A DNA stretch of 64,000 nt, from contig CALWKE010000001.1 in the NCBI GenBank assembly GCA_944381185.1, positions 456,939 to 520,938 of the forward strand. The letters are read 5' to 3'. Origin of the DNA: an uncultured Clostridia bacterium (GTDB taxonomy: Bacteria; Bacillota; Clostridia; Christensenellales; UBA1242). Every line of letters starts with the position of its first letter. Positions within the stretch are counted from its first letter, which is position 1. The position numbers were made by a program, and so were the translations under genes. The notes beneath the pieces are model-generated. The model had not been told where the DNA came from, searched no databases, and saw only the letters and a program-made list of their open reading frames with translations. Shown one piece after another: positions 25,269 to 30,173 of the stretch.

Positions 25269-27005
25269 TTATTTTAATTTTTCATCAATCATTTTTTCAA
25301 AATCGCTTTGAATCATCATATCGGCAAGTGGCATAATCAAATAGCCATTTAATTTTTTGCTAAATTTGTTAATAAGGGTTGCAACTGCTTGAAGTTCGTT
25401 TGACCAAACAAACCATTTATCAATATATTCCTTTGCTTTTGCAGGACTCTTATCAATTTGAATTCTAACAACTTCTGCCATCATTTTTCTTGTTGTTTCT
25501 TTTACCTTGTCAAAATCAAACCTAATCTTTCCGTCTGGCTGAAGAATAATTCCGCCCGCCGAAAATAGCCTATTCAAAATCATAACCGAACGCACTCTGT
25601 GAGCCTGACTTAAATCTGGCTTGCCCTTCAAAAAGTCACCTGACAGGCTTGACACAATAATCTCTTTTGACTGCTCATCGCTAAACACCCCTGCTTGAAC
25701 AAATTCATTCAAAAACGCATACATACCCATATCTGCTTTGAACTCTTCCATTATTGAACTATATTTGCCAAGCGTTGAATGTGCCTTTGGCCCAAGTGAA
25801 TGAGTGTTTTCATGACAGATAACTGCCCAATGGTCAGCATCAGGATTAAAAAATTTGAATTGGTCATCAGCAATTAAATTCTTATATAATTTTTTATTTA
25901 CACCAAATCTAACTTGCCTGTGATAAACATTTCTTCTTCCCCCACCAATTTCAAGTGAAGGCTTGTCATCGTTTGGAAGATTTTGTGCAAGCACCAAACT
26001 TGCCCTGTATGCTCCCTCGTCACCCGTGAGTGAAATAAGGTCAACATCAACAGCCGTTTGAGGAATGTCATCATGCTCTTCAAACTGCTCATACTCATCT
26101 TTATAAGGCATATATTTTGCAGAGATATCAATCAAACCTTTAAGTTTCTTCAAAAGTTTTGTTCCGTTTTTGTTGACAATACCAACTCTTGCACCAAGGC
26201 TGTCTTTGGCATAAACTGTTATGCCAGCCATCTGCAAGCGGTCATACAAAACCTTGTTTTCATAAATGGTCTTTGTAAGTTTTTCTTGATAACACTCCCT
26301 AGAAACCGTGAATTCAAACTTGCACTTGTCAAGAGTTGCCCAAACCTTGTCTGCCTTTGCATCAAGTTTTGGGTCAGGTGTTTCAAATGCCTGTGCCTGA
26401 AGTTCAAGATATTCATTAAATTTTTTGTCGGTTGAATGCTCTTTTGCAAGTCGAAGTTCTTTTGCAACAGACCTAAATTCATCAAAAGCCGAAACAAAGT
26501 CAATAGCTTTCAAAAGTTCGCCGTCACGAACAACAATACTTCTTTGATTAAGAATCTTTTTTATTTCTTCAATTTGCCCATTATCAAGCATCTTATTTAA
26601 AATGCTATGAAATTCGCTTTCAGTTAAATCTTCAGGAAAGTAGCCAAGCCCGTCTGTCTGCTCTAAATTTTTAACAAGTTTTGTTTGGTTGCCAAGAGCA
26701 TCAGGTGAAAACATGCTCTTTTGTGACATAAAAAGCCTTTTAGTAAGTTCGGCTTTTTTGTTACCTTTTTGAATTTCTTCATTTAAAAATTCAAGAAATT
26801 CCATATTATGATGATTTTCAAGTTTTAAATTGATTGTATCAAAATAACTTGCTGCCCGTGTTAAATGACAAAGCACCAAAAGGTCTTCTTTAGAAAGTTT
26901 TTTAACTTCTCGGCTGTCAATATTTAAAAACTTGACAGGTCTGTATCTTGACCTTGAAGTTCTGGTTTTTAATTCTTTTAAACTCATATTCAAAATAAAT
27001 TTCAT
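25269..27005 (-). CDS. putative zinc metallopeptidase, M49 (DPP-III)-like
   Basis: HENTH (HExxH) followed by EEFKADMG, the layout of the second M49 motif (EExxAD). SD AGAGG favours the ATG at 27005. Confidence 0.5.
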   Translation of the reverse strand: MKFILNMSLKELKTRTSRSRYRPVKFLNIDSREVKKLSKEDLLVLCHLTRAASYFDTINLKLENHHNMEFLEFLNEEIQKGNKKAELTKRLFMSQKSMFSPDALGNQTKLVKNLEQTDGLGYFPEDLTESEFHSILNKMLDNGQIEEIKKILNQRSIVVRDGELLKAIDFVSAFDEFRSVAKELRLAKEHSTDKKFNEYLELQAQAFETPDPKLDAKADKVWATLDKCKFEFTVSRECYQEKLTKTIYENKVLYDRLQMAGITVYAKDSLGARVGIVNKNGTKLLKKLKGLIDISAKYMPYKDEYEQFEEHDDIPQTAVDVDLISLTGDEGAYRASLVLAQNLPNDDKPSLEIGGGRRNVYHRQVRFGVNKKLYKNLIADDQFKFFNPDADHWAVICHENTHSLGPKAHSTLGKYSSIMEEFKADMGMYAFLNEFVQAGVFSDEQSKEIIVSSLSGDFLKGKPDLSQAHRVRSVMILNRLFSAGGIILQPDGKIRFDFDKVKETTRKMMAEVVRIQIDKSPAKAKEYIDKWFVWSNELQAVATLINKFSKKLNGYLIMPLADMMIQSDFEKMIDEKLK

Positions 27006-27130
27006 AAGCACCTCTAGTTTTATTATACACTAATTTTAAATTCTCTCATCAAAAATCACAAGCATATTTTGTAGATATAAAAACTTTAATTAAAATTTTT
27101 GCTAAAAAAAGAATGCTAAAAAAAGCACTC

Positions 27131-27535
27131 TTATTTTTTTCTTTTAATTTTTTTTATTTTTAAAACAACACTTGCAACAACTAAACCCAAAAGCAAAAGT
27201 GAAAAAATTAAAAATACAATATCAATAAAGAAAATCGAGCCAACAGCCTCTTCAACTTCTTTAAAGGTTTGAACCTGATTAAAAAAATACACAAATCCCA
27301 AAACGCAAACAACAAGTGCAACACACAAAACCACAAGGGTTTTTGTTTGCTCTAACAGTTGCCCCAAATTGTGCATAAAAATTTGAAGTTTTGTTTTTGG
27401 TTGAACAGGCTTAATGTCATTTGTTTCGCCCAACTTTTCTTGCTCATTTTCATAAACGAATTCTTGATTTCCACAATCATCGCAAACCAAAACTTCATCA
27501 CTTACAACTTTTCCACACTTACTGCATTTTTTCAT
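27131..27535 (-). CDS. zinc-ribbon membrane protein
   Basis: CSKCG-x13-CDDCG N-terminal ribbon and two TM segments. SD AGGGTGA. Confidence 0.5.
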   Translation of the reverse strand: MKKCSKCGKVVSDEVLVCDDCGNQEFVYENEQEKLGETNDIKPVQPKTKLQIFMHNLGQLLEQTKTLVVLCVALVVCVLGFVYFFNQVQTFKEVEEAVGSIFFIDIVFLIFSLLLLGLVVASVVLKIKKIKRKK

Positions 27536-27543
27536 AAGTCACC

Positions 27544-28140
27544 CTACATTTGTTTTCTATCAGAAATTGCCTTTGAAAGCGTAACTTCATCGGCATATTC
27601 AAGTTCACTTCCCATTGAAATGCCCTGTGCAATTCGTGACACGGTTACGCCTAGTGGCTTTAAAAGTTTTGCAACATACATTGCTGTAGCCTCACCTTCA
27701 ACATCAGGGTTTGTGGCAACAATAACTTCTTCTGTTTGATTTTCACTGACCCTTTTAAGAAGTTCTTTAAGCCTTATATCATTTGGACCCACACCTGCAA
27801 GCGGATTGATTGTGCCATGCAAAATATGGTATTGCCCTTTAAAGTTGCCTGTTTTTTCAATCGCCATGGCATCTTTTGGTTCTTTTACCACGCAAATAAC
27901 CTTGCTAGACCTTTCACGGCATATTTTGCAAGGGCTCTTTTCAGTATAATTTCCACAAATTGAACAAAATTTAACTTTTGATTTTACATCAAGAAGAGCT
28001 TCAGCAAAATTCTTTACATATTCATCACTTGACTTAATGATAAAATATGCGTATCTTTCTGCCGACTTTTTGCCAACGCTTGGAAGTTTAGAAAATTCAT
28101 TAATTAGCCTTGCGATTGGTTCAATGCTATTAATATCCAC
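27544..28140 (-). CDS. recR: recombination protein RecR
   Basis: LPSVGKKSAERYA HhH, CxxC-x12-CxxC zinc finger, Toprim region (VIVATNPDVEGEATA). The GTG start overlaps the ybaB TAG. Confidence 0.95.
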   Translation of the reverse strand: MDINSIEPIARLINEFSKLPSVGKKSAERYAYFIIKSSDEYVKNFAEALLDVKSKVKFCSICGNYTEKSPCKICRERSSKVICVVKEPKDAMAIEKTGNFKGQYHILHGTINPLAGVGPNDIRLKELLKRVSENQTEEVIVATNPDVEGEATAMYVAKLLKPLGVTVSRIAQGISMGSELEYADEVTLSKAISDRKQM

Positions 28141-28472
28141 TAAATTAAGCCTCCGAATGCACCAAGTTTTTCCTGTTTCATTTTATCAGCCTTTGATTTG
28201 GCATCATTGAATGCAGCAACAACAAGGTCTTCAAGCATTTCAACATCATCAGGGTCAACGGCTTCTGGCTTAATTGAAACACTAACCATTTCAAACTTTC
28301 CATTTATAACAACTTTAACAAGTTCGCCACTTGCACTTCCTTCAAACTCACTTTCATCAAGTTCTTCTTTTGCACGCATTGCGTCCTGTTGCAATTTTTG
28401 TGCTTGACGCATCATGGCTTGCATGTTTCCGCCACCGCCAAATCCGCCAAAACCACCAAATTTATTTCCCAT
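28140..28472 (-). CDS. ybaB: YbaB/EbfC nucleoid-associated protein
   Basis: MMRQAQKLQQDM-like core. AAAGGAGA SD favours the ATG at 28472. Confidence 0.9.
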   Translation of the reverse strand: MGNKFGGFGGFGGGGNMQAMMRQAQKLQQDAMRAKEELDESEFEGSASGELVKVVINGKFEMVSVSIKPEAVDPDDVEMLEDLVVAAFNDAKSKADKMKQEKLGAFGGLI

Positions 28473-28543
28473 AATAACATCTCCTTTCCACATTATTATA
28501 AAATTTATTTGTTATTTTTCAAAATATTTTTACACTTAATTTT

Positions 28544-29062
28544 TTAAATTATTTTTAATTTAGACCCAAGCAACATTTTTAACTCTTCAAGGTCTTTGCC
28601 GTCTGGCTGTTTTGTTTTTACTTTAAAAGTCAACTGCCTTTCTTCAAAAAAACTTGAAAGCACTTTGTTAAATTTTTCATTCTGTTCAAGTTCAACAAGT
28701 GAAGGGTCTTCGCCATAAATTTCAACAACACTATTTTCGACAAAAATCTTTTTTATTTGACGAGAAAGCATTAAAAGTGACATTTCTTTACTTTTTCGAA
28801 GATAACTTAACAGTTCGCCTAAAAGTTTTTCACCAAAATCAAGTTCTTCTGTGCTTTCAAACAAATTTTTGAGTTTTTCAGAAGCAAAAGGCTCAACCTT
28901 TTCGTTTGTTTTTTTGTTTTTTTCATCTAAACTTGTTTTACTCTCTTTGTCTTCTGACTTGATTTGTTTTTTTATCTCATTAACTTCATTTTTAAGTTCT
29001 TGAACAGCCTGAAAATTTTTATTGCCGGGGTCATTAGCTGGGAAAATTTTTAAGTTTTTCCT
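28544..29062 (-). CDS. dnaX: dnaX 3' segment (tau-specific linker plus C-terminal domain) in the +1 frame relative to dnaX
   Basis: The frame is open from the TAG at 29063-29065 and overlaps the last 9 dnaX codons. A K/E-rich linker is followed by LLGELLSYLRKSKEMSLLMLS...VEIYGEDPSLVELE, the usual Firmicute DnaX C-terminal pattern. There is no credible independent start or SD. Confidence 0.55.
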   Translation of the reverse strand, partial: RKNLKIFPANDPGNKNFQAVQELKNEVNEIKKQIKSEDKESKTSLDEKNKKTNEKVEPFASEKLKNLFESTEELDFGEKLLGELLSYLRKSKEMSLLMLSRQIKKIFVENSVVEIYGEDPSLVELEQNEKFNKVLSSFFEERQLTFKVKTKQPDGKDLEELKMLLGSKLKII

Positions 29063-30173
29063 CTAATGCTGAAACCCTTTGTTCAAGTGAAATATTGCTT
29101 ATTGTTTTTATTATCGCAGTTTCAAGCACAAGTCTTGGAAGAGTGCTGTAACGAAGTTCTTGCTCAACACTGCTTAAAATTTCAATGGCACTGACAAGTT
29201 CGCCATAATTTTCAGCAGTCGCTTGACCCTTCATTTTTTCATAGATATCATCTTTAACAACAACAATTTCACGAGCCTTATCGCCAAGTGAATAAATTAA
29301 AAGCAAATCCCTAAAATATGAAATCAAGTTGCTTGCAAACACAAGTGGACTTTTGCCACTTGAAAGCACTTTGTCAAGTTCAACCAAAGCACTGCCAACA
29401 TCTTTTTTCAAAATTAAATCTGAAAGGGCTATCAAAGTTTCTTTTTCTGAAATGCCTAAAACTTCAACAACTTTTTGATAGGTTAAATTGTTGCCTGAAT
29501 AAGACACACACCTGTCTGCGATTGAAAGTGTGTCACGCACACTGCCTTCGCCCGCCCTTGCAATAACGCTTATAGCCTGTTCATCAAATGTGACACCTTC
29601 TTCTTTTAAAATCTTACGAAGAATGGCCGACAAATCTTCAACTGAAACAAGCTTAAAATCAAAGCGAATACATCTTGAAAGAATTGTTGCAGGAAGTTTG
29701 TGAACTTCAGTTGTTGCCAAAATGAAAACCGTGTGTGCTGGTGGCTCTTCAAGTGTTTTAAGCAGTGCATTGAACGCACTTGTTGAAAGCATATGAACTT
29801 CATCAATAATGTAAACTTTATATTTGCCGACCACGGGTGGATACTTAACCTTTTCTCTTAAATCACGAATTTCGTCAACACCATTATTTGAAGCAGCATC
29901 AATTTCAAGCACATCAATGTTGGTTTTGTCAAGGGCTTTGCAAGTTTCACATTCAAGGCAAGGCGAACCATCACTACTGTTTGTGCAGTTGATTGCCTTT
30001 GCAAAAATTTTTGCTGTTGTGGTTTTGCCCGTTCCCCGACTTCCCGTAAAAAGATATGCGTGTGAAATTTTGTCTAACTTAATTTGGTTTTTTAGTGTGG
30101 TGATAATGTGGTCTTGACCAATAACTTCATCAAAAGTTCTTGGCCTATACTTTCTGTAAAGTGCTAAATACAT
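29034..30173 (-). CDS. dnaX: DNA polymerase III clamp-loader subunit DnaX, domains I-III (gamma-length product in the 0 frame)
   Basis: YRPRTFDEVIGQ, GSRGTGKTT, zinc module CxxCxxC, DEVHML, SRC. SD AAGGGGA. The 0 frame ends with TAA TGA. Confidence 0.95.
   Translation of the reverse strand: MYLALYRKYRPRTFDEVIGQDHIITTLKNQIKLDKISHAYLFTGSRGTGKTTTAKIFAKAINCTNSSDGSPCLECETCKALDKTNIDVLEIDAASNNGVDEIRDLREKVKYPPVVGKYKVYIIDEVHMLSTSAFNALLKTLEEPPAHTVFILATTEVHKLPATILSRCIRFDFKLVSVEDLSAILRKILKEEGVTFDEQAISVIARAGEGSVRDTLSIADRCVSYSGNNLTYQKVVEVLGISEKETLIALSDLILKKDVGSALVELDKVLSSGKSPLVFASNLISYFRDLLLIYSLGDKAREIVVVKDDIYEKMKGQATAENYGELVSAIEILSSVEQELRYSTLPRLVLETAIIKTISNISLEQRVSALEEKLKNFPS

What the first reader, a model, noticed from the sequence alone, without database searches (positions are those of the whole stretch)
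28544..30173. dnaX is split exactly after domain III; the tau-specific part continues in the +1 frame across TTT CCC A one codon before the stop
The 0 frame gives a complete gamma-length clamp loader of 379 aa, ending ...LEEKLKNFPS, then TAA TGA. The next 164 codons (K/E-rich linker plus a DnaX-type C-terminal domain) lie in the +1 frame. That frame is open from 29062, so it overlaps the last 9 dnaX codons. It has no SD or plausible start.

The overlap reads AAA AAT TTT CCC AGC TAA. On TTT CCC A, the Phe tRNA (UUU to UUC) and the Pro tRNA (CCC to CCA) could both re-pair after a +1 shift. This would give a tau of about 541 aa, a typical Firmicute length.

E. coli makes gamma by a -1 shift and Thermus by transcriptional slippage. 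Here the 0 frame would give gamma and recoding would give tau, which is the inverse arrangement. Alternatives are a 1-nt assembly error or a genuinely split gene.
Basis: partly seen in the sequence, partly recalled or inferred. Interest (0 to 1): 0.66.

Follow-up and report, generated by a model that had tools for sequence, protein, structure and literature searches.

The report
Conserved +1 frameshift site in dnaX
In a large group of uncultured gut Clostridia, the DNA-replication gene dnaX stops after its short (gamma) form and the rest of the long (tau) form continues one base out of frame across an invariant TTT CCC A. The ribosome most likely has to slip forward one base to make tau, and I found no earlier report of dnaX being decoded this way.

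Summary
It is neither an assembly error nor a chance ORF. dnaX (30173..29034, minus strand) ends after domain III at 379 aa (…KLKNFPS TAA TGA). The tau-specific linker and C-terminal domain lie in the +1 frame (29062..28544), with no ATG/GTG/TTG for the first 59 codons after the junction.

Twenty other frame-broken loci from independent assemblies show the same layout. Their DnaX N-terminal identity is 66–89% where measured, and the C-terminal part is only 30–50% identical. CCC A is invariant in all 21 loci, and TTT CCC A in 20 of them. The 0-frame stop follows 1, 2, 3 or 6 codons later. In one relative the +1 frame opens only 11 nt before the stop, which confines the shift to TTT or CCC.

The linker varies from 47 to 99 codons in the 18 loci scored. 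It has no +1-frame stop there, against 201 stops in frame 0 and 60 in frame +2. More distant relatives encode the same domain fused in frame.

I found no conserved start codon, SD, poly-A run, 3' RNA structure or Rfam element. CCC makes up only 5.7% of Pro codons in the window.

Best explanation: programmed +1 ribosomal frameshifting by peptidyl-tRNA-Pro (CCC to CCA), giving a 542-aa tau, while standard decoding gives gamma. A reversed dnaX layout is already known, but only with a −1 shift at poly-A. This case is a new variant and has not been tested experimentally.

The parts
29034..30173 (-). dnaX 0-frame ORF. It gives a 379-aa, gamma-length clamp-loader subunit (AAA+ domains I-III). Stop is TAA at 29036-29034.
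   Evidence: ORF list and translation. Pfam DNA_pol3_delta2, DNAX_ATPase_lid and DNA_pol3_gamma3. NCBIfam PRK05563 at 540 bits and TIGR02397 dnaX_nterm at 457 bits. Walker A GSRGTGKTT, four-Cys Zn module, DEVH and the SRC motif are visible in the translation.
29039..29045 (-). Proposed +1 shift site, TTT CCC A (0 frame UUU_CCC_A; +1 frame UUC CCA).
   Evidence: TTT CCC A is invariant in 20 of 21 frame-broken loci, and CCC A in all 21. L026's +1 frame opens at ATT TTC CCA, which confines the shift to these codons. It is the only in-frame TTTCCCA among 40 long ORFs of the window, and CCC is 5.7% of Pro codons.
29031..29038 (-). The last two bases of the final sense codon AGC (29039-29037), then the tandem 0-frame stops TAA (29036-29034) and TGA (29033-29031) that end gamma one codon after CCC.
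   Evidence: Sequence. TAA lies one codon after CCC in 18 of 21 loci. It lies 2 codons after (TAG, L025), 3 after (TAA, L027) and 6 after (TAG, L028) in the others.
28838..29038 (-). Tau linker in the +1 frame. It is K/E/N-rich, about 67 codons long, and contains a predicted helix with the conserved E-(I/V)-K motif.
   Evidence: In 18 loci it has no stops in the +1 frame, against 201 in frame 0 and 60 in frame +2, although its length varies from 47 to 99 codons. K31 is nearly invariant across 30 clusters. A helix is predicted at residues 16-42. The window has no start codon before 28864.
28547..28837 (-). Tau-specific C-terminal globular domain in the +1 frame (LLGELLSYLRK … LLGSKLKII). The stop TAA at 28546-28544 follows it.
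   Evidence: The profile search finds 112 clusters, and the same domain sits at the C-terminus of in-frame DnaX in outgroups (P0213, 530 aa, residues 406-529; also P0201, P0148, P0178, P0212). Substitutions are biased to the third codon position in the +1 frame. AlphaFold pLDDT is above 90 for residues about 80-150. There is a weak match to PRK05563 positions 376-510.
29036..29062 (-). Overlap of the two frames. The +1 frame opens after a TAG, 26 nt upstream of the gamma stop.

Best explanation
dnaX of this organism, and of a broad clade of uncultured low-GC Clostridia, appears to be decoded in two ways.

- **Standard decoding** ends at TAA, one codon after UUU CCC, and yields a 379-aa gamma-like subunit (domains I-III).
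- **Frameshifted decoding:** a fraction of ribosomes shifts +1 on UUU_CCC_A. Peptidyl-tRNA-Pro most likely re-pairs from the rare CCC to the overlapping cognate CCA. The preceding Phe (UUU in the E site, or the Phe-Pro nascent end) probably helps. Translation then continues in the +1 frame through a 67-codon linker and a roughly 95-residue C-terminal domain, giving a 542-aa tau (…KNFP-ANDPGNK…).

Tau therefore depends on recoding, and the tau:gamma ratio is set by frameshift efficiency.

**Shown here:** the two-frame architecture; its conservation; the invariant shift motif; coding of the +1 frame from the junction onward; homology of the +1 product to the C-terminus of in-frame DnaX.

**Inferred:** that the event is ribosomal; which tRNA slips; how efficient it is; that both products function.
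For: 1. **Frame break is clade-wide.**
   - Of the 120 nearest DnaX clusters (78-100% identity), 118 are 379-381 aa long.
   - Twenty other frame-broken loci from independent ENA, Logan, NCBI and JGI assemblies carry the C-terminal ORF in the +1 frame.
2. **Invariant motif.** TTT CCC A is present in 20 of 21 loci and CCC A in 21 of 21, while flanking codons and the third positions around it vary. CCC is a rare codon here, at 5.7% of Pro codons and 1.5 per 1000.
3. **The shift window is tightly confined.** The +1 frame opens only 11 nt (L026), 14 nt (L008, L022) or 20 nt before the stop.
4. **The stop can move while the heptamer stays** (L025, L028).
5. **The linker is coding from the junction.** There are 0 stops in the +1 frame, 201 in frame 0 and 60 in frame +2 over 1128 codons. 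Length differences between lineages keep the frame.
6. **No conserved initiation signal.** There is no conserved start codon or SD. Gene callers start this ORF at scattered positions. All 34 short clusters whose call reaches the junction read FP-x-(N/K/…).
7. **Fused outgroups exist.** Loci L016, L017, L019, L023 and L024 and proteins P0213, P0201, P0148, P0178 and P0212 have the same domain fused in frame after domain III.
8. **Precedents from the literature.**
   - +1 shifting of peptidyl-tRNA-Pro on CCC_N occurs in low-GC Listeria phages, where CCC is also about 5% of Pro codons.
   - The E. coli pheL site UUC_CCC_UGA shifts at 15% and depends on the penultimate Phe (PMC3082878; PMC5009743).
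   - The UGG isoacceptor of tRNA-Pro is intrinsically prone to +1 shifts (PMC4519876, title and abstract).
Against: - No protein, ribosome-profiling or reporter data exist for any member.
- The codon after CCC is an ordinary sense codon (AGC, AGU, AGA, AAC or AUC), not a stop or a demonstrably slow codon as in classical +1 sites.
- I found no SD-like, stem-loop or pseudoknot stimulator, so the basis for high efficiency is unexplained.
- The tRNA-Pro gene set of the organism could not be examined.
- Some lineages have TTG or GTG codons in the overlap (L001, L006, L015, L018) that could in principle start a separate protein.
- L027, the only locus without TTT, is a contig at 1.5x coverage.
Confidence: 0.8

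Rival explanations
1. The gene is genuinely split. DnaX is gamma-only, and the C-terminal domain is made as a separate polypeptide by independent or coupled (termination-reinitiation) initiation in the +1 ORF.
For: Gene callers do find TTG or GTG starts in the overlap in some lineages (L001 at -15 and -8; L006; L015; L018 at -5 with GAGG). All database entries for this domain in the clade are stand-alone ORFs.
Against: - Start candidates are not conserved. The window, L008, L014 and L022 have none for 39-59 codons after the junction, and L026's frame opens at ATT.
- No SD is conserved.
- The linker upstream of all candidate starts is stop-free and frame-preserving in 18 of 18 loci, and it carries a conserved E-I-K helix motif.
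- Separate initiation would not explain invariance of the rare CCC and of TTTCCCA at synonymous positions.
- An untethered tau C-terminal domain could not link a polymerase to the clamp loader (established tau function; inference).
Confidence: 0.1
2. The frame is restored by something other than ribosomal slippage. Candidates are transcriptional slippage, RNA editing that adds or removes a base, or a dedicated quadruplet-reading tRNA-Pro that decodes CCCA.
For: dnaX in Thermus and the reversed dnaX of Chlorobi and others use transcriptional slippage (PMC3711429, PMC5009743). The window happens to have A5T4C3 at the site. Comparative data cannot tell RNA-level events from ribosome-level ones.
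Against: - Slippage-prone templates need homopolymer runs of about 7-8 or more (PMC3711429).
- Relatives read AAGTTTCCCAGT, with no run longer than 3.
- No poly-A or poly-T is conserved.
- A quadruplet-decoding tRNA would also affect the other 23 CCC codons seen in the window's long ORFs.
Confidence: 0.07
3. The break is an artefact or decay: a 1-nt sequencing or assembly error, or a recently pseudogenised tau tail.
For: The window alone cannot exclude an indel in A5T4C3. One relative (L028) does carry an unrelated in-frame TGA inside domain III, which shows that errors or decay occur in such contigs.
Against: - The same break occurs in about 87 contigs of the same species-level protein and in 20 other frame-broken loci assembled by different projects.
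- The C-terminal domain is under purifying selection in the +1 frame. Third-position differences dominate, for example 10/4/32 in L012-L020.
- The domain is conserved across 112 clusters at 50% identity.
Confidence: 0.01

Closest known systems
Reversed two-ORF dnaX of Chlorobi and other genera (Antonov et al. 2013, NAR 41:6514, PMC3711429; Atkins et al. 2016, PMC5009743)
   Same: The 0 frame ends right after the recoding site and gives gamma. Tau requires recoding. The gene is annotated as two ORFs and is missed by standard annotation.
   Different: Those cases are -1 at the DNA level and sit on poly-A runs of 7-10 A (transcriptional slippage, or an E. coli-like -1 PRF). This one is +1, on UUU_CCC_A, with no homopolymer run, in Clostridia.
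E. coli dnaX -1 programmed frameshift (A_AAA_AAG with a 5' SD and a 3' stem-loop)
   Same: It is the same gene and has the same outcome: two clamp-loader subunits that share domains I-III, with the boundary after domain III.
   Different: In E. coli tau is the 0-frame product and gamma is the frameshift product. The direction is -1, with tandem tRNA-Lys slippage and defined stimulators. None of these features is present here, and Rfam finds no hit.
+1 frameshifting of peptidyl-tRNA-Pro at CCC_N: Listeria phages PSA/A118/A500 (tsh CCC_UGA; PSA cps ACA_CCC_UCC), phages with CCC_UAA, and E. coli pheL UUC_CCC_UGA (PMC5009743, PMC3082878)
   Same: The shift codon is CCC in a low-GC host where CCC is about 5% of Pro codons. 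The +1 codon is again Pro. pheL has Phe immediately before Pro, and that Phe raises efficiency. The pheL site needs no 3' structure.
   Different: In those cases the A-site codon is usually a stop (a 'shifty stop'), or a pseudoknot follows. Here a sense codon follows CCC, the stop is usually one codon further on, and no structure was found. This case is a chromosomal essential gene, not a phage gene or a leader peptide.
prfB (RF2) +1 autoregulatory frameshift, CUU_UGA_C with an SD 3 nt upstream
   Same: It is a chromosomal, widely conserved bacterial +1 PRF in which the full-length essential product needs the shift.
   Different: prfB uses tRNA-Leu on CUU_U, a UGA in the A site sensed by RF2, and a conserved SD stimulator. 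None of these applies here: the GAGG seen in the window is GAAG in most relatives.

Membership tests
DnaX (tau/gamma) clamp-loader subunit | AAA+ module with Walker A/B, a four-Cys Zn module, the SRC motif, and DnaX domain III | tested here: met
   Pfam DNA_pol3_delta2 (1e-46), DNAX_ATPase_lid and DNA_pol3_gamma3. NCBIfam PRK05563 at 540 bits (cut-off 400) and TIGR02397 at 457 bits. The motifs can be read in the translation.
DnaX (tau/gamma) clamp-loader subunit | The tau-specific C-terminal extension is homologous to that of in-frame DnaX proteins | tested here: met
   A profile of the +1 ORF hits the C-termini of in-frame DnaX: P0213 (530 aa, residues 406-529, E=2.5e-8), P0148 (1.7e-18), P0178 and P0201. 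Loci L016, L017, L019, L023 and L024 are fused in frame. Only a weak match to PRK05563 positions 376-510 (E=1e-3).
DnaX (tau/gamma) clamp-loader subunit | The C-terminal domain has the fold or function of the polymerase-binding tau domain V | tested here: inconclusive
   The AlphaFold model is confident for the domain (pLDDT above 90). No PDB match is significant: the best Foldseek E is 0.14, and E. coli tau-c (5fku_E) scores only E=0.47. The sequence profile has no PDB hit.
Programmed +1 ribosomal frameshift (CCC_N, peptidyl-tRNA-Pro type) | Two overlapping ORFs with the downstream one in +1. The downstream product is homologous to the continuation of the upstream one. | tested here: met
Programmed +1 ribosomal frameshift (CCC_N, peptidyl-tRNA-Pro type) | A shift-prone codon allowing re-pairing in +1, conserved at synonymous positions across lineages | tested here: met
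   CCC_A is present in 21 of 21 loci and TTT_CCC_A in 20 of 21, although CCC is only 5.7% of Pro codons.
Programmed +1 ribosomal frameshift (CCC_N, peptidyl-tRNA-Pro type) | A slow A-site codon (stop or rare codon) next to the shift codon | tested here: not met
   The codon after CCC is AGC, AGU, AGA, AAC or AUC. In the window these run at 9-21 per 1000 where counted, so they are not rare (AUC was not counted). The stop lies 1-6 codons further on.
Programmed +1 ribosomal frameshift (CCC_N, peptidyl-tRNA-Pro type) | A cis stimulator (5' SD-like element or 3' stem-loop/pseudoknot) | tested here: not met
   GAGG upstream is not conserved. The 3' 70 nt fold weakly, with z between -1.8 and +0.3 and different structures in each locus. 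RNAalifold finds 0 consensus pairs.
Programmed +1 ribosomal frameshift (CCC_N, peptidyl-tRNA-Pro type) | A trans-frame protein product is demonstrated | not testable with these tools
   This needs proteomics or a reporter assay.
E. coli-type dnaX -1 PRF element (Rfam DnaX frameshifting element) | A_AAA_AAG heptamer with an SD and a 3' hairpin, in the -1 direction | tested here: not met
   No Rfam match at gathering threshold, or at E<=10, around the site. The direction is +1.
Reversed dnaX with poly-A slippage (Antonov 2013) | A -1 frame relation and a poly-A run of 7-10 at the junction | tested here: not met
   The frame relation is +1 in all the frame-broken loci scored. No conserved homopolymer is present.

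The most novel reading that the evidence does not exclude
This is a stimulator-less, moderately to highly efficient +1 frameshift on UUU_CCC_A that sets tau:gamma stoichiometry in a whole clade of gut Clostridia.

It would work because the organism reads the rare CCC with a shift-prone tRNA-Pro(UGG), and because of the Phe-Pro nascent end. Tau supply, and hence replisome assembly, would then respond to tRNA-Pro charging or modification (TrmD m1G37) and to EF-P status.

That would make it a second widespread chromosomal +1 PRF in bacteria alongside prfB (own knowledge, not checked here). It would also be an independent fourth route to gamma and tau.
Probability: 0.25. Interest if true: 0.85.

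Novelty: new variant of a known kind. Interest (0 to 1): 0.72.

Why it matters
- **A new route to tau and gamma.** dnaX is the textbook bacterial recoding gene. Known routes to tau and gamma are -1 PRF, transcriptional slippage and proteolysis. A conserved +1 PRF that is required for the essential long subunit would add another, independently evolved route.
- **A rare kind of bacterial +1 PRF.** From my own knowledge of the field, not from the papers searched here, it would be one of very few chromosomal +1 PRF cases in bacteria apart from prfB.
- **Gamma in Firmicutes.** It implies that a Firmicute-type lineage makes a gamma subunit, whereas, again from my own knowledge, Bacillus makes only tau.
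- **A minimal shift cassette.** The site is a natural, apparently stimulator-free UUU_CCC_A cassette for studying tRNA-Pro slippage.
- **Annotation.** The tau tail is mis-annotated or truncated as a hypothetical protein of 59-215 aa in 106 of the 112 matching clusters (50% identity). Annotation pipelines could fix this with a ribosomal-slippage rule.

Tried and rejected
- **First genome-contig scan:** run with a four-sequence C-terminal alignment, it found nothing because the patterns were too specific.
- **30-sequence alignment:** too diverse for the search for related loci. A six-sequence alignment worked.
- **Pfam on the +1 product:** nothing. NCBIfam gave only a marginal PRK05563 match, and only 1 of 30 members reached it.
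- **PDB searches:** neither the sequence-profile search nor the Foldseek search of the AlphaFold model gave a significant hit, so I could not show that the domain is a tau domain V.
- **Stimulators:** I looked for an SD-like 5' element, which is not conserved. I also looked for a 3' structure and found none. Rfam had nothing.
- **Stop codon as 'shifty stop':** I considered the stop as the stimulator of shifting at AGY_UAA. I rejected it as the core mechanism because the P-site tRNA cannot re-pair there and the stop moves in L025, L027 and L028 while CCC_A stays.
- **tRNA-Phe slippage as the sole event:** UUU to UUC with a hungry CCC in the A site is weakened by L027 (AAC CCC A), but it is not excluded.
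- **Transcriptional slippage:** rejected for lack of any conserved homopolymer.
- **Literature:** searches for a +1 dnaX case or for the heptamer found none.
Full report
**Observation**

The gene is on the minus strand.
- dnaX starts at 30173 and runs 379 codons to TAA at 29036-29034, followed at once by TGA.
- The product has the full DnaX N-terminal architecture. Pfam finds DNA_pol3_delta2, the ATPase lid, and domain III at residues 231-370. NCBIfam PRK05563 scores 540 bits and TIGR02397 scores 457 bits.
- The +1 frame is open from 29062 (26 nt before the stop) to 28544, which is 172 codons.
- Its first ATG/GTG/TTG is the TTG at 28864, 59 codons after the junction, with no SD.

**Not an error, and not peculiar to this genome**

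- A search with the +1 product returned stand-alone ORFs only. Three of them (about 50% identical) cover the junction.
- Their contigs show a 379-aa dnaX overlapped by a +1 ORF in the same sigH-dnaX-ybaB-recR context.
- A search with the 379-aa DnaX shows that 118 of the 120 nearest clusters (78-100% identity) are 379-381 aa long. The 99-100% clusters alone come from about 87 contigs.
- Further loci came from protein look-ups, GTDB species representatives and JGI metagenomes.
- tBLASTn frames show a clean split. Every locus whose DnaX N-terminus is at least 76% identical to the window's, plus three partial ones at 66-70%, has the C-terminal part in frame +1. Five loci at 54-67% (L016, L017, L019, L023, L024) have it in the same frame as a normal tau, with 121-156 extra residues.
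- A profile search of 1.8 billion representative proteins found 112 clusters with this C-terminal domain. Of these, 106 are short ORFs of 59-215 aa with scattered starts. The six long ones are in-frame DnaX or fragments of it, for example P0213 (530 aa, domain at 406-529).
- The +1 ORF is therefore the homologue of the tau C-terminus. The frame break is a derived feature shared by one clade. NCBI labels these genomes only as uncultured Clostridia MAGs from human, goat and other guts.

**The conserved element**

Anchored on the 0-frame stop, the only invariant block is TTT CCC A-N-N TAA.
- The codon after CCC is AGC, AGT, AGA or AAC in 18 loci.
- L025 reads TTT CCC ATC TCA TAG.
- L028 reads TTT CCC AGT GAC ACG CCC AAC TCA TAG.
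- L027 reads AAC CCC AGT AAT AGC TAA.

So CCC A is present in 21 of 21 frame-broken loci and TTT CCC A in 20 of 21. The position and identity of the stop can change.

The +1 frame opens only 11 nt before the stop in L026 (ATT TTC CCA), 14 nt in L008 and L022, and 20 nt in several others. The change of frame must therefore happen on UUU or CCC (or on the following sense codon, where no re-pairing is possible).

CCC is rare: 24 of 418 Pro codons (5.7%, 1.5 per 1000) in 40 long ORFs of the window. dnaX holds the only in-frame TTTCCCA among them.

All 34 short clusters whose called ORF reaches the junction read F-P-x-(N/K, sometimes D, H, I or T). That is what TTC CCA NNT AAN predicts.

**The +1 frame is translated from the junction onward**

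- The linker between the junction and the globular domain varies from 47 to 99 codons among the 18 loci scored. It contains no +1-frame stop, against 201 stops in frame 0 and 60 in frame +2 over 1128 codons.
- Start-codon candidates are not conserved, and none has a conserved SD. The window, L008, L014 and L022 have none for 39-59 codons.
- The linker carries a conserved helix motif (E-I/V-K, K31 nearly invariant) upstream of the window's first possible start.
- The domain is under clear purifying selection in the +1 frame (differences by codon position 10/4/32 in L012-L020). The linker evolves fast, with a modest excess of third-position changes.

**What was not found**

- No conserved SD-like sequence. 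The window's GAGG is GAAG in most relatives.
- No stable or shared 3' structure. The z-scores run from -1.8 to +0.3, and RNAalifold finds 0 pairs.
- No Rfam family at the site.
- No conserved homopolymer that could support transcriptional slippage.

**Mechanism**

The best-supported reading is programmed +1 ribosomal frameshifting at UUU_CCC_A.

I favour peptidyl-tRNA-Pro slipping from CCC to CCA, for three reasons.
- CCC_A is the universal element.
- CCC_N is a documented +1 site. It is used in low-GC Listeria phages, where CCC is also about 5% of Pro codons, and it occurs at E. coli pheL UUC_CCC_UGA. That site shifts at 15% and depends on the penultimate Phe, with no 3' signal (PMC5009743, PMC3082878).
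- tRNA-Pro(UGG) is intrinsically shift-prone (PMC4519876).

The near-invariant UUU fits either the Phe effect seen in pheL or an additional tRNA-Phe UUU to UUC re-pairing. Both slips give the same peptide, …KNFP-ANDPGNK…, and a tau of 542 aa.

The unusual point is that the next 0-frame codon is an ordinary sense codon. The stop is usually one codon further on but can be up to six, so this is not a classical 'shifty stop'. The efficiency and its determinants are unknown.

**Comparison with what is known**

- Recoding in dnaX is classical: -1 PRF in E. coli and transcriptional slippage in Thermus.
- A reversed organisation, in which tau needs recoding, was described by Antonov et al. 2013 (PMC3711429) and noted by Atkins et al. 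2016 (PMC5009743). Those genes are -1 at poly-A runs, in Chlorobi and other genera.
- Full-text searches found no report of +1 frameshifting in dnaX or of this heptamer.
- None of the 112 database clusters is a fused product from this clade, so no source annotates the slippage.
- I therefore rate it a new variant of a known kind. The gene and the outcome are known, and the shift chemistry has precedent, but the combination, the direction and the lineage are new.

**Limits**

- Everything rests on comparative sequence analysis.
- I could not show that the C-terminal domain is structurally a tau domain V.
- L027 and L028 are low-coverage contigs.

Noticed in passing
window 25269-27011 (-): A 580-aa ORF lies downstream of recR. 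It is conserved at the same position in most relatives with sequence there (products of 576-581 aa). It has no Pfam hit, and it contains an HExxH-type motif (HENTH), so it may be an uncharacterised metallopeptidase.
   Followed up: partly
L028 about 580-660 (relative's dnaX, domain III): An in-frame TGA interrupts domain III (KAIEI*GSEEQNLRYS) in this relative. It is probably a low-coverage error or local decay. The locus still keeps TTT CCC AGT, with the 0-frame stop six codons later.
   Followed up: partly
L027 about 845-872: This is the only junction without TTT. It reads AAC CCC AGT AAT AGC TAA, and the +1 frame reads ACC CCA GTA. It comes from a single contig at 1.5x coverage. If real, it shows that CCC_A alone is enough.
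   Followed up: partly
window 28140-28493 (-): The ybaB/ebfC ORF is listed as 117 aa from an upstream ATG, but the homologues in relatives are 106-110 aa. The real start is probably the second ATG (MGNKFGG…), just after a GGAGA.
   Followed up: no
window 27131-27535 (-): A small zinc-ribbon protein (134 aa) with a predicted hydrophobic C-terminal half sits between recR and the 580-aa ORF. Relatives have ORFs of 131-173 aa at this position with no Pfam hit on record.
   Followed up: no
window 29031-29036 (-) and relatives: The gamma stop is TAA exactly one codon after CCC in 18 of 21 loci, and in most of the 34 protein-only representatives that reach the junction. A few show TGA at the same position (inferred from FPxD). 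This preference is stronger than the mechanism seems to need, and I have no explanation for it.
   Followed up: partly
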